Origin: Candidatus Eiseniibacteriota bacterium
Lineage (GTDB): Bacteria > Eisenbacteria > RBG-16-71-46 > DASYSL01
Direction: 5' to 3'
Assembly (NCBI GenBank): GCA_031413115.1
Contig: JANOEH010000024.1
Coordinates: forward strand, 336-64,335
Length of the DNA: 64,000 bases
Position 1 is the first letter of the stretch, and each line of letters starts with the position of its first letter. The notes under the pieces were generated by a model. The model saw only the letters and a list, made by a program, of their open reading frames with translations. It did no database searches and had not been told where the DNA came from. The position numbers were made by a program, and so were the translations under genes. Below are positions 35,027-49,626 of this stretch, piece after piece.

Positions 35027-35383
35027 CCATGTACCGCGAAGCGGGGTTTGGTTTCCTAACCGATTCAATGGCAGTGAGTTGACCAGGATGGTCGGGACCC
35101 AAAAGGGGCTTCGCAAGGGGTCCACCGCCCAAGGCGTGGGCGGACCGGCCGGACCTTGTCCACGCCGGGGCCAGACCGCGGAATCGGGCCGGAATGGTCA
35201 AGATTCTGTTCGGCAGGGGTCGGTATCCGGGAAATCGAACGAAAAGGTCCCTCTTTTCATGCATCTTACCCACGTCACGTTGCACCCGCGTTTCGAGGCC
35301 CCCGAGTCCGCAGTGCGTGGACCCCTGCCGCCCGGCAGAGGGTTGCGCGCTCAGCCCGTATCGCGAGGTCAGGAGGCGTCACC

Positions 35384-36517
35384 ATGGCCAAGCGAATGGG
35401 GCTCATGCTCCTCGTCGTCGGGCTCTTCATCGTCGGCATCGGTACCTGGAAATTCCTGCAGATCAAAGCGGCGATCGCCGAGGGTGGCTCCTACGCCCCG
35501 CCCCCGACGACCGTCACGACGCTGGTCGCCGGCGAGCAGGAGTGGGCCTCGACCCTGACCGCAATCGGCAGCGTGGAGGCGGTCAACGGCGTGGTGGTCA
35601 GCGCCGACCTCGCCGGAGTCGTCCGCGAGATCGCGTTCCAGTCGGGAGCGCGCGTAGCGAAGGGCCAGGTCCTGGTCCGCCTCGAGTCCTCGACCGAGCG
35701 CGCGCAGCTCGCCCAGGCGCAGGCCTCGGCTGACCTGGCGAAGCTCAACCTCGATCGCGCCGAGAAGCTGATCGGGCGCGGCGTCATCGCCCAGGCCGAG
35801 CTCGACCGCTTCCGCGCCGAGGCCCGCCAGGCCGACGCCAGCGTCGACGCGGTTCGCGCGGTCCTCGATCGCAAGAACATCACGGCGCCGTTCGCGGGCG
35901 TGCTCGGCATTCGCCAGATCGACCTGGGTCAGCGGTTGAACGAAGGCGACGCGATCGTCCCGCTGCAGTCGCTCGATCCCGTCTACGTGAACTTCTCGCT
36001 CCCGCAGCGCGACGTGAACGCGCTCAAGGTCGGCGCCGCCGTGCACGTCACGTCGGACGAGGCGGTGACGACGCAGACCGGCCGCATCACGTCGATCAAC
36101 TCGGTGATCGACCCCGCGACCCGCAACATCGCCGTGCAGGCCACCTTTGCCAACCGCGGCGAGCTGCTGCGGCCGGGGATGTTCGTCGACGTCACCGTGG
36201 ACCTGGGAGCGGGCAGCCGGGAGATCACGCTGCCGACCACGGCCATCGCCTACGCGCCGTACGGCAACTCGGTGTTCGTCGTCGAGGACCTGCCCAACCC
36301 CAAGGACCCCAAGGGCAAGCCGTACAAGGGCGTGAGCCAGCGCTTCGTCAAGACCGGGCGCGAGCGGGGCGACCAGGTCGCCGTGCTGTCCGGGCTCAAG
36401 CCCGGCGATGAGGTTGTGACCACCGGCGCGTTCAAGCTGCGTCCGGGTGCGAGCGTCGTGGTCGACAACAAGCTCCAGCCGGGCAACGAAGCGACGCCCA
36501 AGCCCGAGGACAACTGA
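35384..36517 (+). CDS. RND efflux periplasmic adaptor (AcrA/MexA family)
   Basis: ATG 35384 with AGGAGG 7 nt upstream; TM anchor, coiled-coil hairpin, lipoyl and beta-barrel segments. Confidence 0.9.
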   Translation: MAKRMGLMLLVVGLFIVGIGTWKFLQIKAAIAEGGSYAPPPTTVTTLVAGEQEWASTLTAIGSVEAVNGVVVSADLAGVVREIAFQSGARVAKGQVLVRLESSTERAQLAQAQASADLAKLNLDRAEKLIGRGVIAQAELDRFRAEARQADASVDAVRAVLDRKNITAPFAGVLGIRQIDLGQRLNEGDAIVPLQSLDPVYVNFSLPQRDVNALKVGAAVHVTSDEAVTTQTGRITSINSVIDPATRNIAVQATFANRGELLRPGMFVDVTVDLGAGSREITLPTTAIAYAPYGNSVFVVEDLPNPKDPKGKPYKGVSQRFVKTGRERGDQVAVLSGLKPGDEVVTTGAFKLRPGASVVVDNKLQPGNEATPKPEDN

Positions 36518-39500
36518 TGCGCTGGACCGACCTCTTCATCAAGCGGCCCGTCCTCGCGATCGTCATCAACCTGCTCATCCTGATCGCCGGCATCCAGTCG
36601 GTCCGCTCGCTCTCGGTGCGCCAGTACCCCCGCACGGACATCGCGCTGGTCACCGTGACGACCGCGTACGTCGGCGCCAACGCCGACCTCGTCCGCGGGT
36701 TCATCACCACGCCGCTCGAGCGCGTGATCGCCAGCGCCGATGGCATCGACTACATCGAGTCGAGCAGCGGCCAGGGTGTGAGCACGATCACCGTGCACCT
36801 GAAGATCAACTACGACACCAACGCCGCGCTCACCCAGATCCAGGCGAAGGTGGCGCAGGTGCGAAACGATCTGCCGCCCGAGGCGCAGGCGCCGATCATC
36901 GAGCTGACCAGCGCCGACGTGGATTTCGCGTCGATGTACATCGGCTTCTCCTCCGCCACGCTCGAGCAGAGCCAGATCAGCGACTACCTGGTGCGCGTCG
37001 TCCAGCCCAAGCTGACGGCGGTCCAGGGCGTGCAGCGCGCCGACATCCTCGGCGGCCGCACGTTCGCCATGCGGGTCTGGCTCAAGCCCGACCAGATGGC
37101 GGCGCGCGGGATCTCGGCCTCGCAGGTGCGCGACGCGCTGGCGGCGAACAACTACCTGTCGGCGCTGGGCCAGACCAAGGGGTCCATGGTCTCGGTCAAC
37201 CTGGTGGCCAACACCGCCCTCAAGTCGCCCGAGGAATTCCGGGCCCTGGTGATCAAGTCCGAGGGCAACGATGTCGTCCGCCTCGGGGACATCGCCGACG
37301 TCGTTCTCGGCTCGGAGAACTACGATCAGGACGTGCGCTTCGACGGCCAGGACGCCATCTTCATGGGCATCTGGGTGCTCCCGGGGTCGAACTCGCTCGA
37401 GGTCATCCGCAAGGTGCGCGAGGCGATGCCCGAGATCGCAGCCGAGCTCCCCACGGGCATGAAGTCGGGCATTCCGTACGATTCGACGCTGTACATCGAG
37501 GAAGCGATCCAGGAAGTGCTCAAGACCCTGGCCGAGACGCTGCTCATCGTCGTCCTCGTCATCTTCCTGTTCCTGGGCTCCGTGCGCGGGCTGATCATCC
37601 CGGTGATCGCGATCCCGATCTCGCTGATCGGCGCGGTTTTCCTGATGGCGACATTCGGCTTCACCATCAACCTGCTGACGCTGCTCGCCATCGTGCTGTC
37701 GGTCGGACTGGTGGTCGACGACGCCATCGTCATGGTCGAGAACGTCGAACGGCACCTGCACGACGGAATGCAGCCGCTGCCGGCCGCGCTGGCGGCCGCA
37801 CGCGAGCTGGTCGGGCCGATCATCGCCATGACCATCACTCTGGCCGCGGTGTACACGCCGATCGCGCTCCAGGGAGGTCTCACCGGCGCCCTGTTCCGGG
37901 AGTTCGCGCTCACGCTTGCCGGCGCGGTCATCATCTCCGGCGTCGTCGCGCTCACGCTGTCGCCGATGATGGGCTCGAAGCTGCTGCGCGCCGGCGACAC
38001 CGAGAAGGGCTTCGCGGGACACATCAACCGCCAGTTCGATCGCCTGCGCATGGCCTACGCCCGGACGCTCGCGGGCAGCCTCGAGTTCCGCCCCGTCATG
38101 CTCGTGCTCTGGGGCCTGGTCATCCTGCTGATCGTGCCGTTCTACATGTTCTCGCAGAAGGAACTGGCGCCGAACGAGGACCAGAGCGTGGTGTTCGGCA
38201 TCATCCAGGCGCCGCCGAACGCGACGATCGACCAGACGAAGATGTTCGCGGCGGAGGTCGAGAAGGTCTACCGCTCGATCCCCGAGTATAAGAACACGTT
38301 CCAGATCCTGTTCCCCGGTGGCGGATTCGGCGGGATGGTCACCAAGCCTTGGAACGAGCGCCAGCGCACCACCGGCGAGATGCAGGTCGAGGCCGCGGAG
38401 AAGCTCTCGAAGATTCCCGGCATCCGCATCATCTCGGTGACGCCACCGGCGCTGCCGGGGGGCGGTTCATTCCCGGTCGACCTCGTGATCTCCTCGACGG
38501 CGCCGCCGGAGCAGGTCGCGGAGTTCGCGGGCCAGCTCGTGGGGAAGGCGTTCGCCAGCGGGCAGTTCATGTTCGCCGACACGGACGTGAAGTTCGACCA
38601 GCCGCAGGCCGAGGTGGTGTTCGACCGCGACATGGTGCGCGCCCAGGGCGTGGACATGGCGCAGGCGGGTCGGGACCTCTCGACGCTTTACGGCGGCAAC
38701 TACGTGAACCGCTTCAGCATCGAGGGCCGCAGCTACAAGGTGATCCCGCAGGTCAAGCGCTCGGAGCGGCTGACGCCCGACCAGCTCGCCGACGTGATGG
38801 TCACCGGTGCGGGCGGCAAGCTGGTTCCGCTCTCCACGTTCGCGACGATCAAGACCACCGTCGAGCCGCGGGAGCTCAAGCGCTTCCAGCAGCTCAACGC
38901 GGTGCGCATCCAGGGGGCGATCCCGCCCGGGGTGCCGCTCGACGGCGCGCTCAAGGTGCTGGAGGACGAGGGCAAGCGGATCCTGCCCCAGGGCTACTCG
39001 CTCGACTACGCCGGCGAGTCGCGACAGCTGCGCACCGAGGGCGGGGGCTTCCTCCTCATCTTCCTGCTGTCGGCGATCCTCATCTACCTCGTGCTTGCCG
39101 CACAGTTCGAGAGCTTCCGCGATCCGTTCGTGGTGCTCGCCGGGTCGGCGCCGCTGGCGGTGGCGGGAGCGCTGTTCTTCTCGTTCATGGGCTTCACCAC
39201 GCTCAACATCTACAGCCAGGTCGGTCTCATCACCCTGGTGGGGCTGGTGGCCAAGAACGGGATCCTCATCGTCGAGTTCGCCAATCACCTGCAGGAGCAG
39301 GGGAGAAGCAAGCTCGAGGCGGTGATCGAGGCGGCGGCGACGCGACTGCGGCCCATTCTGATGACCACGGCGGCGACCGTGTTCGGTCACCTGCCGCTGG
39401 TGTTCGCACACGGTCCGGGCGCCGGCGCGCGCAACTCGATCGGCATCATGCTGGTCTCGGGCATGATCATCGGCACGACGTTCACGCTGTTCGTCGTTCC

Positions 39501-39594
39501 GTCGATCTACATGGCGGTGGCGAAGACGCGCACGCGCACGGTCGAGGACGAGGGCCGGGCGGACCTGCACGGGACGGTGCCGATACCGGTCTGA
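36517..39594 (+). CDS. RND multidrug efflux permease (AcrB/MexB, HAE1 family)
   Basis: 1025 aa; MRWTDLFIKRPVLAIVINLLILIAGIQS... canonical AcrB N-terminus; ATGA overlap with adaptor; no cognate OMF gene follows. Confidence 0.95.
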   Translation: MRWTDLFIKRPVLAIVINLLILIAGIQSVRSLSVRQYPRTDIALVTVTTAYVGANADLVRGFITTPLERVIASADGIDYIESSSGQGVSTITVHLKINYDTNAALTQIQAKVAQVRNDLPPEAQAPIIELTSADVDFASMYIGFSSATLEQSQISDYLVRVVQPKLTAVQGVQRADILGGRTFAMRVWLKPDQMAARGISASQVRDALAANNYLSALGQTKGSMVSVNLVANTALKSPEEFRALVIKSEGNDVVRLGDIADVVLGSENYDQDVRFDGQDAIFMGIWVLPGSNSLEVIRKVREAMPEIAAELPTGMKSGIPYDSTLYIEEAIQEVLKTLAETLLIVVLVIFLFLGSVRGLIIPVIAIPISLIGAVFLMATFGFTINLLTLLAIVLSVGLVVDDAIVMVENVERHLHDGMQPLPAALAAARELVGPIIAMTITLAAVYTPIALQGGLTGALFREFALTLAGAVIISGVVALTLSPMMGSKLLRAGDTEKGFAGHINRQFDRLRMAYARTLAGSLEFRPVMLVLWGLVILLIVPFYMFSQKELAPNEDQSVVFGIIQAPPNATIDQTKMFAAEVEKVYRSIPEYKNTFQILFPGGGFGGMVTKPWNERQRTTGEMQVEAAEKLSKIPGIRIISVTPPALPGGGSFPVDLVISSTAPPEQVAEFAGQLVGKAFASGQFMFADTDVKFDQPQAEVVFDRDMVRAQGVDMAQAGRDLSTLYGGNYVNRFSIEGRSYKVIPQVKRSERLTPDQLADVMVTGAGGKLVPLSTFATIKTTVEPRELKRFQQLNAVRIQGAIPPGVPLDGALKVLEDEGKRILPQGYSLDYAGESRQLRTEGGGFLLIFLLSAILIYLVLAAQFESFRDPFVVLAGSAPLAVAGALFFSFMGFTTLNIYSQVGLITLVGLVAKNGILIVEFANHLQEQGRSKLEAVIEAAATRLRPILMTTAATVFGHLPLVFAHGPGAGARNSIGIMLVSGMIIGTTFTLFVVPSIYMAVAKTRTRTVEDEGRADLHGTVPIPV

Positions 39595-39702
39595 TCGACA
39601 CGAAGACGGACGAAACAGGACCGGCCGGTGGCGCACAGCCCACCGGCCGGTTCGTATTGTTCGTGCGCAGACGACTCCGCTCAGCCCGGACCGGGTGGCA
39701 GT

Positions 39703-40755
39703 CTACTTCGTCGCCGCGGCCTTCGCCGGCGCCTTGGCCGGCGGGTCGGCGGCGTTGTGGTAGTTGTTCGCGATCTCCTTTTCCAGCGCGTCGGCCCGCG
39801 CCGTGCTCATCGAGTGGTCGCCGTAGAAGAAGTTCGTGACCGAATCCTGGTCGCCGTACTTCTCGGCGAACCGCCGCCACAGCAGCGGCGCCTTCTTGTA
39901 GTCGTAGCCAGCCTCGTAGACGTAGCGGAGGCCGACGCGATCCGCCTGGTCCTCGTAGTCGCGGCTGTACGAATTGTTGAATGCCGAGTAGCCGAGTTGC
40001 GTCGCCTGCTGCGCGAGGGTGCGCGCCGTCGAGTTGCCGATCATTCCGGCGTTGGCCGCCGCGAGCTGGCCCGCAAGCCCGCTCATCTGGTTCTTGCTGG
40101 CCTGCCGCCGGCTGTGCTCGTAGGTGGCGTGCGCGATCTCGTGGCCGAGCACGACGGCCAGCTCGTCGTCGTCAAGGTCCGCCATGATCCCCGTGTAGAC
40201 GTAGATCGAGTAGTTGGCCATGGCCATCGCGTTCCACTCCGGATTCTCGACCACGTAGACGCGGACGCCCGCGGGATCGATGTAGTCCGGCAGGACGCGA
40301 TTGACGATGTTGCGTGCGCGATCGACCTGCGGGCCGCCGGTGAGCAGCTTGCCCATGCTCTGCGTCTTCCCATCCGCACCCTGCTCGACGATGGCCTGGG
40401 CGGCGACCCACGTCGACTCGGCCATGTTCGTGCCCACGAGGATCTTCTCCTCGGTGGCGTCGACGTTGTTGGCCTTGGCCTCGAACTCGGAGGCCTTCAC
40501 CGTGCCGTCGGCCTGGCGCACTCCCCTGGCGCGCGCGCCGTAGCCCAGCGGAACGTCGGCGGCCGAGGTGAAGCCGGCCGCCTTGAACTTCATGCCGGGC
40601 AGCGGCTCGACGCGCTGGCCGTCGATGATCAGGTAGGGGCCCTTGTGGAACTCGAGCACGCCCTCGACCTTGATCTTCTTGTCGGCGGCGGCCGCCGGAA
40701 CGGCGAGGGCGGCGAGCAGCCCGAGCGCGATGAGCGACGGATGCAACGAACGCAT
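39703..40755 (-). CDS. M48 family zinc metallopeptidase (BepA/YfgC-like)
   Basis: ~350 aa from ATG 40755; signal peptide; HEIAHATYEH (HExxH) motif and downstream Glu; last gene of a 4-gene operon. Confidence 0.85.
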   Translation of the reverse strand: MRSLHPSLIALGLLAALAVPAAAADKKIKVEGVLEFHKGPYLIIDGQRVEPLPGMKFKAAGFTSAADVPLGYGARARGVRQADGTVKASEFEAKANNVDATEEKILVGTNMAESTWVAAQAIVEQGADGKTQSMGKLLTGGPQVDRARNIVNRVLPDYIDPAGVRVYVVENPEWNAMAMANYSIYVYTGIMADLDDDELAVVLGHEIAHATYEHSRRQASKNQMSGLAGQLAAANAGMIGNSTARTLAQQATQLGYSAFNNSYSRDYEDQADRVGLRYVYEAGYDYKKAPLLWRRFAEKYGDQDSVTNFFYGDHSMSTARADALEKEIANNYHNAADPPAKAPAKAAATK

Positions 40756-40781
40756 GATGTTCGCTCTCCCTGCGAGTGGGG

Positions 40782-41405
40782 TTACGGAGCGCCGCGCGCG
40801 TTCTCGCGGCGGACGCTCTCGATGACTTCGCTGTAGTAGGGCTTCTCCTTGAGGCTGGCGTATTCGCCGGGAAACATGACGAACGTGATGTCCGCGGAAT
40901 GGTCGGAGAAGCCGTTGAGGACGATCGCGCAACGGTGGCCGCCCAGCAGCCGGGTGTTGTCGATCATCGGGAAATCGAAGTAGCTCACCTTGAACGCCGC
41001 GGTCTTGGTCTGCCGTCCCAGCGCCGGGTCCGGCGTCTCGACCGTGAGCTGGACGTCGAGCTCCTTGCTGACCCGGTCGACGGCGTTGATGTCGATCCGG
41101 ATCGTCGACTGCAGCGAGTCGAGCATGAGCGTGGCCTCCTCGAGTGACGTGCCCTCGGGGTCCCCGGTCAGGTCGATGCTGCGGTCGAACTTGCGGCCGA
41201 CGCCCTCGAGCACGATCACCTGCTTGCGACCGATCTCGCGGGCGACACGCTCCAGCCGGTCCATGTAGTCGACGTAGTCGGCGCGAACGCCCGCGTTGGG
41301 CGCGGCGGTGATGCCCCGCGCGATGCGGCGCTTGAGGTCGAGGAACAGGGGCTTCAGGTTCAGCGACTCGTGGAAGTTGTAGACCAGCAGCTCGAGGTTG
41401 AGCAC
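40782..41405 (-). CDS. Hypothetical protein (207 aa), no family recognised
   Basis: GTG start overlapping upstream ORF's end by 8 nt; good GC3; soluble, no TM. Confidence 0.55.
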   Translation of the reverse strand: MLNLELLVYNFHESLNLKPLFLDLKRRIARGITAAPNAGVRADYVDYMDRLERVAREIGRKQVIVLEGVGRKFDRSIDLTGDPEGTSLEEATLMLDSLQSTIRIDINAVDRVSKELDVQLTVETPDPALGRQTKTAAFKVSYFDFPMIDNTRLLGGHRCAIVLNGFSDHSADITFVMFPGEYASLKEKPYYSEVIESVRRENARGAP

Positions 41406-41412
41406 GCTGTTG

Positions 41413-41712
41413 TCAAGGTCGCCACAGGTCCGAGGCGCTGACGAAGCTGCCGATGATCGACTGGAACATGTCCTTGCGCAGCGCGCTCTCCGACTCCTCG
41501 CGTCGGCTCATCAGCTCGGAGTAGAGCCGCGCGTTCGTCTCGGCGGCCTGGCGCCGGTCGAGGAACTCCGACGACTTGAATCCGAGCACGCCGATCGCGA
41601 GCGCGGTGAACAACCCGCCCAGCGGCTGGACGAGGACCGCCAGCTTGTCCCAGGAGTCGCGCCTGGCCGGCACGTGCACGTGCGGCGGCTCGTGACCGGG
41701 GGTCTCGCTCAC
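41413..41712 (-). CDS. Small transmembrane protein (~99 aa)
   Basis: GTG 41712 overlaps stop of upstream gene (GTGA); one TM (LAVLVQPLGGLFTALAIGVLGF) then charged helix; high GC3. Confidence 0.4.
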   Translation of the reverse strand: MSETPGHEPPHVHVPARRDSWDKLAVLVQPLGGLFTALAIGVLGFKSSEFLDRRQAAETNARLYSELMSRREESESALRKDMFQSIIGSFVSASDLWRP

Positions 41713-42056
41713 TTGCGGCGCAGGCTCGGCTTGCCATCCTTCTTCTCGAGGATCAGGTCGTAGCGCGTCGCTTCCTTGTTCGAGAAGATGGCGAGCTCGA
41801 CCGGCTGCTTCTCGTACACGAGGGTGAGCGTGCACTTGCCTTCGCCCTTCACCATCAGCTTGAACGAGCCGAACTTGTCGGTCGTCGTCGTGTCGGCGAC
41901 GGTCGTGGCGCCGGGCAGCGAGACCTTGATCTTGACGCCCTCCGGCAGCGGCTTTCCGTCGAGCTTGATGTCGCCGAAAATGCGTCCCGCGGCGGCGGGC
42001 TGCGCGCCGACAAGGACCAAGCCGACGGTGAGGACGGCGAGAACGAATGAACGCAT
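41709..42056 (-). CDS. Small secreted carboxypeptidase-regulatory-like (transthyretin-fold) domain protein
   Basis: 115 aa; AGGAG RBS; signal peptide; GRIFGDIKLDGKPLPEGVKIKVSLPG...TTTDKFGSFKLMV..GKCTLTLVY matches CarbopepD_reg-like pattern; Lys-rich. Confidence 0.6.
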   Translation of the reverse strand: MRSFVLAVLTVGLVLVGAQPAAAGRIFGDIKLDGKPLPEGVKIKVSLPGATTVADTTTTDKFGSFKLMVKGEGKCTLTLVYEKQPVELAIFSNKEATRYDLILEKKDGKPSLRRK

Positions 42057-42187: not shown

Positions 42188-43120
42188 TCAGCGATAGGTG
42201 CTCTTGACCCGTCCCCACGACGACCCCGCGCTCGGGGTCGCGGCCTCGATGGCGAAGGGGTAGTCCTCGGTCTCGCCGTTTCGAATCTGGCCACCGGGCA
42301 TCGCCGCCGTGCCGTTCCACGGGAAGTCGACGCCGACCGGTTCCTGCGAGATCGAGATCCGCGTCCACGCCGGGCCCACGTTCGGCCCGACGAGAAATGC
42401 CGGCGAGACCATCGAGTTGCAGCCGGGCAGGAGCGTGATCGGATGATTGCGCACCGCCCACTCCCATGCGCAGCCGCCGGTCGGCGGGGGGCAGGTGAAG
42501 TTGTCGTTCCAGTCCCCGTCGGTGTTGAAGTCGACCAGGATGTTGAGGAAGCCCTGCGCCACCGCATGACAGCTGTACGCCTCGTACGGGACCGTCGCGG
42601 GAGTGCAGGCCACGAACGTCGGTTGGGCCAGCAGCCCCGCGTCGGAGCCGTCGGCGAGGCACTCGTCCTGCTCGAACGAAAGCGGCGGATATCCCGGAGT
42701 GACACAATCGGTGGTGATGGCCGGATTGCAGGACGAGGCGCCCCCGCCGAACGGGTTCGTCTTGCCGTCGGCATCGTCGTCGATGCCCATCGGGCCGGTG
42801 TAGCACCCCAGCCAGAAGCTCCCCGGTACGGCGAGGAAGTGCTTCACGTACCCGGTCGGCCCCGGCGGGGAGCTGACGGCCGGGCAGGTGATCGTCTGGG
42901 TCCCGACGCCGCCGGGTAGCGAGCAGGTCGGGAAGTTGCCGATCGCACTTCCCGCCCAGGTGGGATAAGCGGTGAAGCTCTCGGGGGCGTCGCCCCAATC
43001 ATCGAGAAAGCGGAGGCAGTCGTCCGGGCCGTCGACGTCGGTCGCGGCAGCGGGGGGGGCCAGGAGGGTCGCCAGCACGAGCAGGCTCAATGCGGCGAAC
43101 CCGAAGCGATGAAAGGACAT
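42188..43120 (-). CDS. Secreted Cys-rich GEVED-like protein ending in SSWGRVKSTYR tail
   Basis: ~310 aa from ATG ~43120; signal peptide MSFHRFGFAALSLLVLATLLAPPAAA; 12 Cys; FPWNGTAAMPGGQIRNGETEDYPF resembles GEVED domain; C-terminal tail as in 31171..31986. Confidence 0.65.
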   Translation of the reverse strand: MSFHRFGFAALSLLVLATLLAPPAAATDVDGPDDCLRFLDDWGDAPESFTAYPTWAGSAIGNFPTCSLPGGVGTQTITCPAVSSPPGPTGYVKHFLAVPGSFWLGCYTGPMGIDDDADGKTNPFGGGASSCNPAITTDCVTPGYPPLSFEQDECLADGSDAGLLAQPTFVACTPATVPYEAYSCHAVAQGFLNILVDFNTDGDWNDNFTCPPPTGGCAWEWAVRNHPITLLPGCNSMVSPAFLVGPNVGPAWTRISISQEPVGVDFPWNGTAAMPGGQIRNGETEDYPFAIEAATPSAGSSWGRVKSTYR

Positions 43121-44925: not shown

Positions 44926-45100
44926 ATCGCCGGATCCCGCCTTGAATGCCCCCCGCGGAAGTGTGAGAGTTCGCACGATCTCGCAGGGTGCCCGGAGCCC
45001 CCGGATGACGCCGCTCCCACGCGCCCCTGCAACTCCGAAGTGCCCCGCAGCGTAGCCACCCCGTCCGTCCCACCTGCAGCTCCCGTCCCGGAGGTTCTCC

Positions 45101-45991
45101 GTGCTTCGCATTCAGGGTCTGGTGAAGGTCTATCCCGGTCCGGTCACCGCGCTCGCGGGGCTCGAACTCGATGTTCCCGCGGGCATGTTCGGCCTCCTCG
45201 GTCCCAATGGCGCGGGCAAGTCCACGCTGATGAAGATCCTCGCCGGCCTGCTCGAGCCTACCTCCGGCTCGATCACGCTCGACGGGGAGGACGTGGTGGC
45301 GCACCCCGAGCGCGTGCGCGCCCGCCTCGGCTACCTGCCCCAGGAGTTCGGCTTCTATCCCCACCTGAGCGGCGAGCAGATGCTCATCCACCTGCTGCGG
45401 CTCAAGGGCGTCGATGCGCCCGGTGGCATCAAGGCGCTGGCGCGCGAGCTGCTCGAGCGCGTGAACCTGGGCTTCGCCGCCCGCCGCGCGGTCAAGTCGT
45501 ACTCCGGCGGCATGCGCCAGCGTCTCGGTGTCGCCCAGGCCATCGCGGGAAGTCCGCGCCTCGTGATCGTCGACGAGCCGACGGCGGGGCTCGATCCCGA
45601 GGAGCGCCTGCGTTTCTATCACCTGCTGACCGAACTGGCGCAGGACCGGATCGTGCTCCTCTCGACGCACATCGTCGAGGATGTCGCCGTCCTCTGCCCG
45701 CGCTTCGCCGTGATCCGCGGTGGGCGCCTGCTGGTGACCACGACGCCGCATGCAGCGCGCCAGGAGCTGGCTGGCGCCATGTTCGAGGGCACTGCCGACG
45801 GCGCCGCGCTGGCAGAACTGCGTGCCCAGGGCCGCGTCACGCAGTCCGTGCTGGTCGAGGGCGTCAACCGCGTGCGCGTGCACCAGGCCGAGGGCACGCC
45901 GCCGGCGGGCTTCGAGCCCGTTGCGCCCACGCTCGAGGATGCCTACCTCGTGCTCATGAACGAGAGCGCGCTCGTGGCGGCCCGGGCATGA
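45101..45991 (+). CDS. ABC transporter ATP-binding protein
   Basis: GTG 45101 with GGAGG upstream; Walker A GPNGAGKST, signature YSGGMRQRL, Walker B LVIVDEP. Confidence 0.9.
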   Translation: MLRIQGLVKVYPGPVTALAGLELDVPAGMFGLLGPNGAGKSTLMKILAGLLEPTSGSITLDGEDVVAHPERVRARLGYLPQEFGFYPHLSGEQMLIHLLRLKGVDAPGGIKALARELLERVNLGFAARRAVKSYSGGMRQRLGVAQAIAGSPRLVIVDEPTAGLDPEERLRFYHLLTELAQDRIVLLSTHIVEDVAVLCPRFAVIRGGRLLVTTTPHAARQELAGAMFEGTADGAALAELRAQGRVTQSVLVEGVNRVRVHQAEGTPPAGFEPVAPTLEDAYLVLMNESALVAARA

Positions 45992-48900
45992 AGCGGTTCC
46001 TCGAGGTTCTGTGGCTCGACCTGCGGGAGATTCCGCGACGCCCGCTGTTCTGGGTGCTGGTGCTGATCCTCGGCTTCATGGCGTTCGCGCTGTCCAACGG
46101 CAACGCGCGCATCGCCTCGGGCGACATGCGCGTGGGCGGCGATCGCGCGTGGCTCACCAGCGAGTTCGCGCAGACGCAGCTCCTCATGGTGCTGGTCGCC
46201 ATCCTCTATTCGTTCTTCGTCTCGATCGCGGCGGGCATGATCTTCATCCGTGACGAGGAGCAGAAGGTCGGGCCGTTGTTGCACGCGACCCCGCTCACGC
46301 CCGGCCAGTACGTGTGGGGCAAGTACTGCGCGGTGCTGCTGGGATTCTTCGGCGTGCTCGGCGTCCACCTGATGACCACGATCTTGTTCAACCACGCGAT
46401 GCCCCACGCCTCGAACCAGGAGGCGATCGGGCCGTTCGTTCCGTGGAACTACCTGAAGCCGGCGATCATCTTCGCCGTGCCGATGCTGGTGTTCATCTCG
46501 GGAACCGCCTACGCGCTCGGGGCCTTCACGCGAAAGGCCGCGCTGGTGTTCGTCGTGCCGATCGCGCTGGTGATTCTTGGCACGTTCTTCCTCTGGGACT
46601 GGTCGCCCGTGTGGCTGTCGCCGTTGGCCGAGCGCGTCCTGCAGTTCATCGACCTGAGCGGTGTGCGCTGGATCAACGAGAACTGGCTCGTGGTCGATCG
46701 CGGCGTGGCGTTCTACAACCGCGCTCCGGTCGGCCTCGATGCGCTGGCGATCGTGCAGCGCTTCGCCTGCCTCGGGCTCGGTCTGGGCGCGGTCGGCCTG
46801 GTACACCTGCGCTTCCCGGCGCTCTTGCGTGGCCCGCGCACGGTCAAGGTGAAGCGCGGGGCACGTGCCGAGGCGCTGGCGCCGGACACGGCGAGCGCCG
46901 GCCTCGAGCGAAGGTCGGCCGGACTGGCGATGCTGAACATGACTGCAAAGGCGCCGGGCTTCCTGCGGTCGGCGTGGAACGTGGCGCGCGTCGAGTTGAT
47001 GGAACTGAAGAGCCACCCGGGGCTTTACCTCTTCGTTCCGCTCATCCTGGTCCAGACGCTGGGCGAGGTGGTCTCGACGGGCGCGTTCGACACGCCGCTG
47101 CTGATGACGCCCGGCAGCCTCGCCGTGCGGCAGATGGGCGCCTTGACGCTGCTCCTGTGCATGCTGATCCTGTTCTACACCACCGAATCGCTGCAGCGCG
47201 AGAAGTCGGCCGGGTTCGCGCCACTGTTCCTCTCGGCGCCCATCCCGACTTCCGCCATGCTCCTGGGCAAGTCGGTGGCGAACGTGGTCGTCGGCGTGAT
47301 CATCATGCTTGCGGCGTTCGCGGGATCGATGATCCTGCTGCTCGTGCAGGGAACGGTGCCGATCCGCCTCGAGCCGTTCCTCCTGTTGTGGGGCGTGCTG
47401 CTCATCCCCACGTTCCTGCTGTGGACCGCGTTCGTGTGCGCCACGTTCACCGTCACGTCGAGTCGCTATGCGACGTACGCAATCGGACTCGCCGCGATGT
47501 CGCTGACCGGCTGGTTCCAGATGCGCGGCAAGATGAGCTGGGTGACCAACTGGGACCTGTGGGCCTCGACGGTGTGGAGCGACATCAGCGTGCTCGAACT
47601 GGACCGCCAGGCGCTGGTGCTCAATCGCCTGCTGGCGCTGGCGCTGGCGGCACTGTTCTTCGCCATCGCCGTGCGCTTCTTCCCGCGCAGCGAGCGCGAC
47701 GCCGCCCGGATCGTCCACGCGCTGAGCCCGCAGCGCCTCGCCGGCCACGCCCTGCGCCTGGCGCCGCTGGTGATCGCTCCCCTGGTTCTCGCGATCGTCC
47801 TCGGGTTCGCCGTGCACGGCGGCCGGGGCGGAGCGGTCGCGCAGAAGAAGGAGCGCGACTACTGGAAGAGGAACAGCGCCACCTGGCGTGATGCGAAGCT
47901 GCCCACGCTGACCGCCGTCGAGCTCGACCTCGAGGTCGAGCCGGACAAGAGCGCGCTCACGTCGTGCGGCACGTACGCGCTGGTCAATCGCACGGCCGAC
48001 ACGCTGGCGGCAATCCCGCTCACCGGCGGACTGCACTGGAAGGACGTGCACTGGACCGTCGACGGCGAGAGCGCGAAGGTGGAGGACCGGGCCGGATTGT
48101 GGGTCGTGCACCCGAAGCGGCCGCTCGCGCCGGGCGATTCGGTCCGCGTCGGGTTCGCGTTCCACGGGCGTTTCCCCGACGGTGTGAGCAAGAACGGCGG
48201 GACCCTGATGGAGTACGTGCTGCCTTCGGGCGTGGTGCTGACCGGGTTTGCCAGCACGGGGATGGCGCCGCTGCTCGGTTACCAGCCCGAGGTGGGCGTC
48301 GAGGAGGATCGCAACAAGCCCGATCCGCGCGAGTATCCGGAGAATTGGTGGACGCGGACGCTGCCGGCGGGCTCACCGATGTTCGACGGCTGGATCACGA
48401 CTCGCCTGCGCGTGACCGGGCCGGCCGACATGCAGCACAATGCCACCGGATTCTGCGAGTCCGACGTGGTGAAGGACGGCCGGCGCACGACAGTCTGGCA
48501 GAGCGATGCTCCCGTGCGGGTCTTCAACGTCGTCATGGGCCGCTGGCAGGTGAAGAAGCAGAACGGCGCAGCGGTCTACTACGATGCGCGTCACCCGTAC
48601 AACGCGCAGGAGATGCTCGACGCCCTGGTCGCCGCCCGCCGCTGGTACGGCGAGTGGTTCGCACCCTACCCGTATCGCGAACTGCGCCTCTCCGAGTTCC
48701 CGGGGCTCGCCAACTACGCGCAGGGTCCGCCGACCAACATCACGTTCTCGGAGAACATCGGCTTCCTCACCAAGAGCGAACCCAAGGCGAACCTGGCGTT
48801 CTGGGTCGCCGCCCACGAAGCGGCACACCAGTGGTGGCCGCTGATCGTGATGTCCGCCGATGGCCCGGGCGGCGAGGTCCTGTCCGAGGGGATGGCGCAC

Positions 48901-49626
48901 TTCTCGACCATCCTGCTGGTCGAGCAGGCACGCGGACTCGAGCAGCGCCTGGCGTTCTGCCGGCAGATCGAGGATCGCTACGGCAATCTCAGGCGCAGGG
49001 ACAGCGAGCGCCCGCTCGTGCGCATGGATGGCCAGCTTCGCGAAGAGGGTCAGATGATCTACGACCGGGGCGGGTTCGTGCTGTGGATGATGTTCCGGCT
49101 GATGGGCGACGAGGCGGGGCGCGCCGGCCTGCGTGACTACATCGCGACCTACCGCGACTCCGAGGACAAGCCGCTGCTCGAGGACCTGCTCCACGTGATG
49201 CGTCGGCATGCGCCGGATCCCGCGGCGTTCGACGCCTTCACGGCGCAGTGGTTCTTCGACACGGTGGTGCCGGAGTTCCTGGTCGACACGCCGGCGCTCG
49301 CGCACGAGGGCGACACGTGGACCACGGTGGCGAAGGTGCGCAATGTCGGCAGCGGGCGCCTGAGGGTGGTCGTCGCGGCCACGCGTGGCGAACGCTTCCC
49401 CGACGCGAAGAAGACCGCGAAGGGCGAGCCCTACGCCGATGCGCGGACCGTCCTCGAGCTCGGACCGGGCGAGGAGAAACCGGTCATGATCGAGAGCGGC
49501 TTCGAGCCCGAGAGAATCGTCGTCGACCCGGACGTCGAGGTGCTCATGCTGCGGCGGGCGAAGGCGCAGGTGCCGATCGAGAACAAGCCCGCGGCCGGGG
49601 CGGCGCTTGCCGGGAGCGATCGGTAG
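45988..49626 (+). CDS. ABC-2 type permease fused to M1-family (aminopeptidase N-like) zinc peptidase domain
   Basis: ATGA overlap with ATPase; ~12 TM segments in first ~650 aa; C-terminal domain with FSENIGF (GAMEN-like), HEAAHQWW (HExxHxW) and SEGMAHF (second Glu) motifs. Confidence 0.85.
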   Translation: MKRFLEVLWLDLREIPRRPLFWVLVLILGFMAFALSNGNARIASGDMRVGGDRAWLTSEFAQTQLLMVLVAILYSFFVSIAAGMIFIRDEEQKVGPLLHATPLTPGQYVWGKYCAVLLGFFGVLGVHLMTTILFNHAMPHASNQEAIGPFVPWNYLKPAIIFAVPMLVFISGTAYALGAFTRKAALVFVVPIALVILGTFFLWDWSPVWLSPLAERVLQFIDLSGVRWINENWLVVDRGVAFYNRAPVGLDALAIVQRFACLGLGLGAVGLVHLRFPALLRGPRTVKVKRGARAEALAPDTASAGLERRSAGLAMLNMTAKAPGFLRSAWNVARVELMELKSHPGLYLFVPLILVQTLGEVVSTGAFDTPLLMTPGSLAVRQMGALTLLLCMLILFYTTESLQREKSAGFAPLFLSAPIPTSAMLLGKSVANVVVGVIIMLAAFAGSMILLLVQGTVPIRLEPFLLLWGVLLIPTFLLWTAFVCATFTVTSSRYATYAIGLAAMSLTGWFQMRGKMSWVTNWDLWASTVWSDISVLELDRQALVLNRLLALALAALFFAIAVRFFPRSERDAARIVHALSPQRLAGHALRLAPLVIAPLVLAIVLGFAVHGGRGGAVAQKKERDYWKRNSATWRDAKLPTLTAVELDLEVEPDKSALTSCGTYALVNRTADTLAAIPLTGGLHWKDVHWTVDGESAKVEDRAGLWVVHPKRPLAPGDSVRVGFAFHGRFPDGVSKNGGTLMEYVLPSGVVLTGFASTGMAPLLGYQPEVGVEEDRNKPDPREYPENWWTRTLPAGSPMFDGWITTRLRVTGPADMQHNATGFCESDVVKDGRRTTVWQSDAPVRVFNVVMGRWQVKKQNGAAVYYDARHPYNAQEMLDALVAARRWYGEWFAPYPYRELRLSEFPGLANYAQGPPTNITFSENIGFLTKSEPKANLAFWVAAHEAAHQWWPLIVMSADGPGGEVLSEGMAHFSTILLVEQARGLEQRLAFCRQIEDRYGNLRRRDSERPLVRMDGQLREEGQMIYDRGGFVLWMMFRLMGDEAGRAGLRDYIATYRDSEDKPLLEDLLHVMRRHAPDPAAFDAFTAQWFFDTVVPEFLVDTPALAHEGDTWTTVAKVRNVGSGRLRVVVAATRGERFPDAKKTAKGEPYADARTVLELGPGEEKPVMIESGFEPERIVVDPDVEVLMLRRAKAQVPIENKPAAGAALAGSDR

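What the first reader, a model, noticed from the sequence alone, without database searches (positions are those of the whole stretch)
39703..42056. Four-gene translationally coupled operon: CarbopepD_reg-like secreted protein, small TM protein, 207-aa unknown, M48 peptidase
Consecutive minus-strand genes are joined by a GTGA start/stop overlap (41709-41712), an 8-nt overlap (41405/41413) and a 27-nt gap before the M48 gene. The middle two proteins have no recognisable family. The first is a Lys-rich transthyretin-fold (carboxypeptidase-regulatory-like) domain with a signal peptide. Such tight coupling implies a stoichiometric envelope complex built around a Zn-protease, whose composition is not one I recognise.
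Basis: partly seen in the sequence, partly recalled or inferred. Interest (0 to 1): 0.65.

Follow-up and report, generated by a model that had tools for sequence, protein, structure and literature searches.

The report
Split gene in a conserved envelope pair
The "four-gene protease operon" is really three genes: a widely conserved but uncharacterised pair (a small secreted beta-sandwich protein plus a membrane-anchored protein, the latter broken by a one-base frameshift in this assembly), followed by an ordinary zinc protease that is only an incidental neighbour.

Summary
The ORFs, the GTGA overlap (41709-41712) and the M48 protease are real. The claimed 8-nt overlap at 41405/41413 is not: it is a 7-nt gap.

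- **One gene, not two.** The "small TM protein" and the "207-aa unknown" are two halves of one ~309-aa gene. One extra base within 41424-41427 splits it. More than 4,500 homologues are single proteins; the 120 listed are 283-337 aa.
- **Conserved unit.** It is a two-gene cassette: a secreted transthyretin-like protein followed by this single-pass membrane protein. They sit together in 85 of 86 fetched loci from more than ten phyla, usually -4 to +10 nt apart.
- **M48 is a passenger.** It is intact here, broken in a 91%-identical relative and absent in a 95%-identical one. It recurs next to the pair in only one of about 75 other distinct loci.
- **Gene 2 family is unplaced.** It has no Pfam, NCBIfam, PADLOC, PHROG or PDB relative, and Foldseek finds no solved fold match.

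The protease-centred complex is not supported. What remains is an undescribed, probably periplasmic two-protein module of unknown function. Interest is moderate to low.

The parts
41709..42056 (-). Gene 1: secreted 115-aa transthyretin-like (CarboxypepD_reg-like) protein. It has a signal peptide ending AAA|G, a Lys-rich mature part and a conserved C-terminal LRRK. An AGGAG ribosome-binding site lies at 42067-42063.
   Evidence: ORF and sequence. 36 of 80 family members hit PF13620, best E 8.9e-8. AF2 model pLDDT 72.7. Foldseek against PDB gave 75 hits at E<=1e-3 to transthyretin-like folds, with query-normalised TM of about 0.43-0.6 among those listed. Found directly upstream of gene 2 in 85 of 86 loci.
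40782..41712 (-). Gene 2: one ~309-aa single-pass membrane protein of an unnamed family, read here as two ORFs (41413-41712, 99 aa; 40782-41405, 207 aa). The true start is the GTG at 41712, which overlaps the gene 1 stop (GTGA).
   Evidence: A fused query found >4,500 single-protein homologues; the 120 listed are 283-337 aa and cover 91-100% of the query. The alignment runs across the junction. AF2 model of the 95%-identical P0001: pLDDT 81. No Pfam, NCBIfam, PADLOC, PHROG or PDB match; Foldseek PDB best TM 0.2.
41424..41427 (-). Frameshift site: one extra base. The window reads GAC-CTGT-GGC where relatives read GAC-AAG-GGC. Deleting the T at 41426 restores ...SASDRGDLDNS...
   Evidence: DNA alignment to L001, L007, L003 and L009. 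Protein alignments. The deposited 68,084-bp NCBI contig carries the 99-aa and 207-aa calls separately.
39703..40755 (-). Gene 3: secreted 350-aa M48 zinc metalloprotease (LoiP/YcaL/BepA-like catalytic domain, residues 165-327; HEIAH at 40143-40129). It has an unassigned N-terminal domain. A GGGAGAG ribosome-binding site lies at 40770-40764, and the gene starts 26 nt after the gene 2 stop. It is a lineage-specific neighbour, not part of the conserved module.
   Evidence: PF01435 E 3.8e-23. NCBIfam LoiP and BepA hits fall far below their cut-offs. Absent in L007, broken in L001, and not found downstream in the other 75 loci surveyed.
39618..39653 (.). Bidirectional terminator hairpin (12-14 bp stem) between the M48 gene and the convergent RND pump gene. 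It marks the end of the transcription unit.
   Evidence: Terminator scan. The same hairpin region follows gene 2 directly in L007.

Best explanation
**Shown**
- The locus is a three-gene minus-strand transcription unit.
- Its core is a two-gene cassette conserved across many diderm phyla:
  - gene 1, a small Sec-secreted transthyretin-like beta-sandwich protein;
  - gene 2, translationally coupled to it, a ~309-aa protein with one N-terminal transmembrane helix, a long and highly conserved juxtamembrane helix, a helical bundle and an eight-strand beta domain.
- In this assembly gene 2 is interrupted by a single extra base. This created the illusory 'small TM protein' and '207-aa protein'.
- The M48 protease gene downstream is co-transcribed here but is a lineage-specific passenger.

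**Inferred**
- Gene 2 is oriented N-in/C-out, so its ~260-residue body sits in the periplasm.
- There it binds the secreted gene 1 protein in a fixed ratio. Together they form an inner-membrane-anchored periplasmic complex with a structural or adaptor role rather than an enzymatic one.
- The frameshift is either an assembly error or a very recent loss-of-function mutation. A C-terminal fragment made without the anchor would stay in the cytoplasm and be useless.
For: **One gene**
- All listed homologues are single proteins covering both halves.
- The alignment is continuous across the junction.
- The DNA shows one extra base relative to four relatives.
- There is no start codon in the 207-aa frame upstream of 41405 and no ribosome-binding site there.
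- Both halves have pN/pS of 0.10-0.28 and no other lesion.

**Pair conserved**
- Gene 1 lies directly upstream in 85 of 86 loci.
- ORF clustering finds only these two genes shared across loci.
- The stop-to-start distance is -4 to +10 nt in 65 of 74 loci.
- The pair was found in 406 GTDB species genomes. The loci fetched come from Eisenbacteria, Krumholzibacteria, Latescibacteria, Ignavibacteria, Zixibacteria, NC10, Nitrospinota, Acidobacteriota, Proteobacteria, Verrucomicrobia and Bacteroidota.
- It is also on the Ralstonia solanacearum CFBP2957 megaplasmid, with a 4-nt overlap.

**M48 incidental**
- The downstream neighbour is on the opposite strand in 45 of 76 loci.

**Topology**
- There is a single hydrophobic segment.
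- K+R counts are 3.4 on the N-terminal flank and 2.2 on the C-terminal flank.
- Some members have charged N-tails of up to about 70 residues with no signal peptide.

**Probably not an enzyme**
- The conserved Cys261 and His114 are replaced in some members, for example P0160 and Ralstonia.
Against: - No direct evidence that the two proteins bind each other; co-folding could not be run.
- The topology rests on a modest charge bias.
- A non-enzymatic role is argued only from the absence of invariant catalytic-type residues. Asn112 is invariant, and several Arg, Glu and Asp residues are nearly so.
- Two independent M48 adjacencies (this lineage, and L044 upstream) are slightly more than chance would predict. 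A loose functional link to periplasmic M48 proteases cannot be excluded.
- Whether the frameshift is an error or a real mutation cannot be decided from the assembly alone.
Confidence: 0.7

Rival explanations
1. One reading: four separate, translationally coupled proteins form a stoichiometric envelope complex organised around the M48 zinc protease.
For: All genes are on one strand with short spacers and a single terminator after M48. All products are predicted to be secreted or membrane-bound.
Against: Two of the 'four' are halves of one gene. M48 is absent from the 95%-identical relative L007 and broken in L001. It was not found beside the pair in the other loci except one unrelated copy in L044.
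Confidence: 0.04
2. The pair is a substrate adaptor or regulator for periplasmic M48-type proteases. The protease is usually encoded elsewhere in the genome and only occasionally lands next to the pair.
For: There are two independent adjacencies with different M48 lineages on different sides: the window/L001 lineage downstream, and L044 upstream on the same strand with 28% identity. My rough expectation by chance is about 0.2 events in about 75 loci.
Against: The statistic is post hoc. The closest relatives lose or degrade the M48 gene while keeping the pair intact. No protease family recurs among the 76 upstream or 76 downstream neighbours.
Confidence: 0.12
3. The split is genuine and tolerated: this strain makes a 99-aa membrane stub and re-initiates at the GTG at 41405 to make a separate 207-aa protein.
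For: The GTG lies 7 nt after the stop, so termination-reinitiation is conceivable. The C-terminal half shows no decay. The deposited contig carries the split.
Against: None of the 120 listed homologues, nor any of the 86 fetched loci, shows this split. There is no ribosome-binding site. The 207-aa product would lack both anchor and signal peptide and would be in the wrong compartment. A single-base indel in a MAG consensus is a common error.
Confidence: 0.08
4. The pair is a horizontally mobile accessory cassette, such as a defence, competition or immunity module, rather than a core envelope component.
For: It is a patchy, self-contained two-gene unit with no conserved neighbours. An IS transposase lies next to it on the Ralstonia megaplasmid and an integrase lies about 4 kb downstream of it in L003. 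Only one of 72,556 plasmids carries it.
Against: No PADLOC or PHROG hit. None was found in 2.9 million viral contigs or 50,697 phage records. Identity falls roughly with phylogenetic distance: 60-64% to Krumholzibacteria, about 55% to Ignavibacteria and about 50% to Acidobacteria and Proteobacteria. This fits mostly vertical descent under strong constraint.
Confidence: 0.1

Closest known systems
Periplasmic M48 metalloproteases of the LoiP/YcaL/BepA type (Pfam PF01435)
   Same: Gene 3 has the M48 catalytic domain with HExxH (HEIAH) and a signal peptide, and no membrane-spanning HtpX-type helices.
   Different: Scores are far below the NCBIfam equivalog cut-offs: LoiP 72.6 against 365, BepA 67 against 570. 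It has an unassigned ~140-residue N-terminal domain, no TPR domain as in BepA, and no lipobox as in LoiP.
Carboxypeptidase regulatory-like / transthyretin-like domain (PF13620; also DUF6795, PF20598)
   Same: Gene 1 is a single seven- to eight-strand beta-sandwich. 36 of 80 family members hit PF13620. The model superposes on transthyretin-like structures.
   Different: It is a free-standing ~91-residue secreted protein, not a domain of a larger enzyme or TonB-dependent receptor. The window copy itself is below every Pfam cut-off: DUF6795 20.3 against 27.4 bits, PF13620 E 0.039. It has its own conserved motifs (GxIFGDI, TDKFGSY, GKC, RYDL, LRRK).
Bitopic periplasmic scaffold proteins with a TM helix, helical region and beta domain (MreC, PilN/PilO, GldM/PorM). 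The comparison of architecture is from my own knowledge.
   Same: Short cytoplasmic tail, one TM helix, then a periplasmic helical part followed by a beta-rich domain, working with partner proteins in the envelope.
   Different: No sequence match to any Pfam model of these families in 123 members. No Foldseek match to any solved structure: best TM 0.2, rmsd above 11 A. The genomic context is different, with no mre, pil or gld genes.
Phage Rz/Rz1 spanins (from my own knowledge)
   Same: Overlapping genes encoding a type-II inner-membrane protein with periplasmic helices and a small secreted partner.
   Different: The gene order is reversed. Gene 1 has a signal-peptidase-I site and no lipobox cysteine. 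No PHROG hit, and none found in phage or viral collections.

Membership tests
Peptidase M48 (gene 3) | Match to the PF01435 profile above the gathering score | tested here: met
   82.7 bits against a cut-off of 20.3, E 3.8e-23, residues 165-327
Peptidase M48 (gene 3) | HExxH zinc-binding motif | tested here: met
   H205-E-I-A-H209, window 40143-40129
LoiP or BepA orthologue (gene 3) | NCBIfam equivalog/exception score above the curated cut-off | tested here: not met
   LoiP 72.6 against 365; BepA 67.1 against 570
CarboxypepD_reg / transthyretin-like fold (gene 1) | Profile match to PF13620 | tested here: inconclusive
   Window copy E 0.039, below the cut-off. However, 36 of 80 orthologues match at E<=0.01, best 8.9e-8.
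CarboxypepD_reg / transthyretin-like fold (gene 1) | Prealbumin-like beta-sandwich structure | tested here: met
   AF2 model pLDDT 72.7. Foldseek hits: 4v4c_B E 2.3e-7, E. coli transthyretin-related protein 2g2n, human transthyretin, 6hif_Y; TM 0.55-0.73.
DUF6795 (gene 1) | Score above the Pfam gathering threshold | tested here: not met
   20.3 against 27.4 bits. Only 3 of 80 orthologues match at E<=0.01.
Any described family for gene 2 | Sequence-profile match in Pfam, NCBIfam, PADLOC, PHROGs or PDB | tested here: not met
   No hit for P0001 or for 123 diverse members. The family profile against PDB gave best E 0.42-0.87.
Any described family for gene 2 | Fold match to a solved structure | tested here: not met
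   Only genes 1 and 2 co-occur. M48 is absent in L007.
Phage spanin pair | Outer-membrane lipoprotein partner and a phage lysis context | tested here: not met
   No lipobox in gene 1. No phage or viral occurrence.

The most novel reading that the evidence does not exclude
The gene 1/gene 2 pair defines an undescribed, ancient periplasmic two-protein complex of diderm bacteria. Its membrane-anchored subunit has a fold not represented among solved structures. It works in envelope maintenance, possibly as an adaptor that presents substrates to periplasmic M48-type proteases.
Probability: 0.25. Interest if true: 0.55.

Novelty: categorically new. Interest (0 to 1): 0.33.

Why it matters
For annotation, the practical result is a correction. 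Two 'hypothetical proteins' in the deposited contig are one frameshifted gene, and the protease is not part of a conserved system.

Beyond that, the work delimits a compact, strongly conserved gene pair. It keeps 46-50% identity between phyla, is present in at least 406 species genomes, and forms 1,128 clusters at 50% identity. It has no Pfam or NCBIfam model, no solved relative and no literature.

Most carriers are uncultured soil and sediment lineages. One copy sits in culturable Ralstonia solanacearum, which makes the function testable. "Categorically new" here means only that no described family or system could be matched. No new mechanism has been demonstrated, so the interest score stays modest.

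Tried and rejected
- **Programmed frameshift:** rejected, because every relative is in frame at that site.
- **Riboswitch or other RNA element in the region:** nothing in Rfam.
- **Anti-phage defence or a phage gene:** no PADLOC or PHROG hit, and no phage or IMG/VR occurrence.
- **Spanin-like pair:** rejected on gene order, lack of a lipobox and context.
- **Cys-His enzyme:** the conserved Cys261 and His114 are substituted in some members.
- **Gene 2 beta domain homologous to gene 1:** hhalign probability 0.3%.
- **Conserved third partner:** none among 76 upstream and 76 downstream neighbours. Only lineage-local synteny appears, such as hisS and pdxT in Ignavibacteria and Ser/Thr kinases in a few FCB lineages.
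- **Finding the frameshift allele in other assemblies:** two metagenome DNA scans returned nothing, and exact-protein look-ups failed.
- **Literature:** a search for DUF6795 found no papers.
Full report
**Observation**

The window is G+C-rich (63-72%, about 67% at this locus), so long ORFs alone prove little.

- The GTGA stop/start overlap at 41709-41712 is correct.
- The spacer before the M48 gene is 26 nt and is preceded by GGGAGAG.
- The stated "8-nt overlap (41405/41413)" is wrong. The 99-aa ORF ends with TGA at 41415-41413 and the next GTG is at 41405. That is a 7-nt gap (CAACAGC) with no ribosome-binding site.
- The 207-aa frame is open upstream to 41507 but contains no start codon before 41405.

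**The two middle ORFs are one gene**

I joined the two translations and searched the protein collection.

- More than 4,500 proteins matched. The best 120 are all single proteins of 283-337 aa that cover 91-100% of the fusion at 67-95% identity.
- In the alignment the homologues read ...SFVSASDKGDLDNSVLNLELL... without interruption. The window gives ...SFVSASDLWRP* in one frame and ...GDLDNSVLNLELL... in the other.
- At the DNA level the window has GGACCTGTGGCGACC where four relatives have GGACAAG-GGCGACC or an equivalent. That is one extra base within 41424-41427.
- Removing the T at 41426 gives ...SASDRGDLDNS..., exactly as in the 94%-identical P0277.
- The 99-aa and 207-aa products are on record as separate calls from an NCBI contig of 68,084 bp. 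The frameshift is therefore in the deposited assembly.
- Apart from this one lesion the gene is intact. pN/pS against two relatives is 0.17-0.28 for the N-terminal half and 0.10-0.18 for the C-terminal half.

The break is therefore either a consensus error or a very recent mutation. It is not a programmed frameshift, because no relative shares it. The GTG at 41712 is the true start, since homologues begin at the same place and often with the same 4-nt overlap. The GTG at 41405 is not a real start.

**What is conserved**

A scan of one genome per GTDB species found 406 genomes encoding a relative. I fetched the best 80.

- They come from Eisenbacteria (the nearest, at 95% and 91%, so the window is almost certainly from that candidate phylum), Krumholzibacteria, Latescibacteria, Ignavibacteria, Zixibacteria, NC10, Nitrospinota, Acidobacteriota, Alpha- and Gammaproteobacteria, Verrucomicrobia and Bacteroidota. 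All are diderm lineages.
- A homologue of gene 1 lies immediately upstream of gene 2 in 85 of 86 loci held. The exception is a contig that begins inside gene 2.
- All-against-all clustering of every ORF in these loci found only these two genes shared. The next clusters occur in 17 and 10 loci.
- Where a start could be assigned, the gene 1 stop and the gene 2 start are -4 to +10 nt apart in 65 of 74 loci.
- In many loci the last codons of gene 1 (CGG-AGG-AAG, encoding RRK) double as the ribosome-binding site of gene 2.
- The immediate downstream ORF is on the opposite strand in 45 of 76 loci.
- No Pfam family recurs among downstream or upstream neighbours beyond lineage-local synteny: hisS and pdxT in Ignavibacteria, and a Ser/Thr kinase in four.
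- The pair also occurs, with a 4-nt overlap, on the megaplasmid of Ralstonia solanacearum CFBP2957, next to an IS transposase.
- It was not found in 50,697 phage records or 2.9 million viral contigs.

**The M48 gene is a passenger**

Gene 3 is a genuine M48 metalloprotease: PF01435 at E 3.8e-23, HEIAH, and a signal peptide. Its closest NCBIfam models are LoiP and BepA, but the scores fall far below their cut-offs. In this genome it is probably co-transcribed with the pair, because a strong hairpin terminator follows it at 39618-39653. Its association with the pair is not conserved, however.

- In the 95%-identical relative L007, the gene 2 stop is followed directly by the sequence homologous to window 39698-39541. 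That is the terminator and the end of the convergent RND pump gene. The whole M48 gene is absent there.
- In the 91%-identical relative L001 the M48 homologue carries a 29-residue deletion and a frameshifting deletion.
- Among all other loci only L044 has an M48 nearby. It is a different, lipoprotein-type M48 (28% identity) lying upstream of gene 1.
- Two independent adjacencies are a little more than my rough chance expectation of about 0.2. That estimate is post hoc, and I record it only as a weak lead.

**The proteins**

*Gene 1*
- It has a signal peptide ending AAA|G, and 14 of its 91 mature residues are Lys.
- Its motifs are conserved across phyla: GxIFGDI, TDKFGSY, GKC, RYDL and a terminal LRRK.
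- The window copy is below all Pfam cut-offs. However, 36 of 80 orthologues match CarboxypepD_reg, best E 8.9e-8.
- An AF2 model (pLDDT 72.7) superposes on transthyretin-like structures: 75 PDB hits at E<=1e-3, with query-normalised TM of about 0.43-0.6 among those listed.

*Gene 2*
- No match in Pfam, NCBIfam, PADLOC or PHROGs, either for the close homologue or for 123 members down to 31% identity.
- No PDB relative by sequence profile.
- The family comprises 1,128 clusters at 50% identity at E<=1e-3.
- The AF2 model of the 95%-identical P0001 has pLDDT 81 and pTM 0.64. It shows a 76-residue helix (TM segment about 26-46 plus a long juxtamembrane helix), three further helices to residue 171, eight beta strands (173-280) and a C-terminal helix.
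- There is a single hydrophobic segment. K+R is enriched on its N-terminal side (3.4 against 2.2), and some members carry charged N-tails of up to about 70 residues without a signal peptide. I infer an N-in/C-out orientation, which puts the body in the periplasm with the gene 1 product.
- Asn112 is invariant, but the conserved His114 and Cys261 are replaced in some members. A Cys/His enzyme is therefore unlikely.
- The gene 2 beta domain is not related to gene 1.

**Most likely mechanism**

*Shown:* a translationally coupled, phylogenetically widespread pair consisting of a secreted transthyretin-like protein and a single-pass membrane protein.

*Inferred:* the two proteins assemble in a fixed ratio at the periplasmic face of the inner membrane, as a structural or adaptor module. 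In this genome a periplasmic M48 protease gene has been inserted between the pair and its terminator, or has been lost from the relatives. No experiment or co-fold supports the interaction yet. I put about 0.7 on the anatomical account, and much less on any specific function.

**Comparison with known systems, and novelty**

- Gene 3 is an ordinary member of M48.
- Gene 1 is a free-standing member of the transthyretin-like/CarboxypepD_reg fold class.
- Gene 2 could not be placed in any described family or fold.
- Architectural analogies (MreC, PilN/PilO, GldM/PorM, spanins) are from memory and failed every test available here.
- By elimination the pair is an undescribed kind of module. All public copies I examined are labelled 'hypothetical protein', and the only literature search I ran, for DUF6795, found no paper.

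This is novelty of the 'unknown family' sort, not a demonstrated new mechanism. I therefore score interest at 0.33.

Noticed in passing
window 42188-43120 (-): A 310-aa secreted, Cys-rich protein lies 131 nt upstream of gene 1 on the same strand. Its only hit is a weak GEVED-domain match (E 0.28). It was found only in the nearest relative genome (L001, L002, L008) and is not part of the conserved pair.
   Followed up: partly
L001 7065-7835 (GCA_031431875.1, Eisenbacteria MAG): The M48 homologue of the 91%-identical relative has a 29-residue in-frame deletion plus a frameshifting deletion. It is either a pseudogene or another assembly error. The same contig also carries extra genes (a 117-aa ORF, an S8 peptidase and a Ser/Thr kinase with TPR repeats) between M48 and the RND pump.
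   Followed up: partly
L007 5592-5810 (JBKJNH010000198.1): In the 95%-identical relative the M48 gene is absent. Gene 2 is followed directly by the terminator and the convergent RND pump gene. This defines a clean ~1.09-kb presence/absence polymorphism corresponding to window ~39699-40786.
   Followed up: yes
L044 4749-5534 (+): A lipoprotein-type M48 peptidase (lipobox LGC, HEAAH) sits about 65 nt upstream of gene 1 on the same strand, in an unrelated lineage. This is a second, independent adjacency between an M48 gene and the pair.
   Followed up: partly
L087 4579-5915 (Ralstonia solanacearum CFBP2957 megaplasmid NZ_CP115953.1): A divergent copy of the pair (33% identity for gene 2, 4-nt overlap) lies in a culturable plant pathogen. 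It is flanked by an IS transposase and an unassigned 342-aa ORF. It is the only hit among 72,556 plasmid records.
   Followed up: partly
many loci, e.g. L048 5665-5690, L051, L052, L083: The conserved C-terminal Arg-Arg-Lys codons of gene 1 (CGG-AGG-AAG) also form the GGAGG ribosome-binding site of gene 2. The LRRK motif is nevertheless kept where the codons are not SD-like, as in the window (CGC-CGC-AAG).
   Followed up: partly
window 45040-49626 (+) and 45101-45991 (+): An ABC-transporter ATPase gene is followed by a very long ORF whose translation contains a HEAAHQWW zinc-aminopeptidase-like motif. The homologous gene in L001 hits ABC-2 permease models. It is syntenic with L001 and unrelated to the finding.
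   Followed up: no
window 35156-39594 (+): An RND efflux system (membrane-fusion protein and a 1025-aa ACR_tran pump) converges on the M48 gene and shares the bidirectional terminator at 39618-39653.
   Followed up: no
P0160 residues ~290-500; P0216 residues ~165-400: Some gene 2 family members carry large insertions in loops of the beta domain or between the helical and beta parts. One of these is a ~200-residue His/Asp/Glu-rich stretch that looks like a metal-binding region.
   Followed up: no
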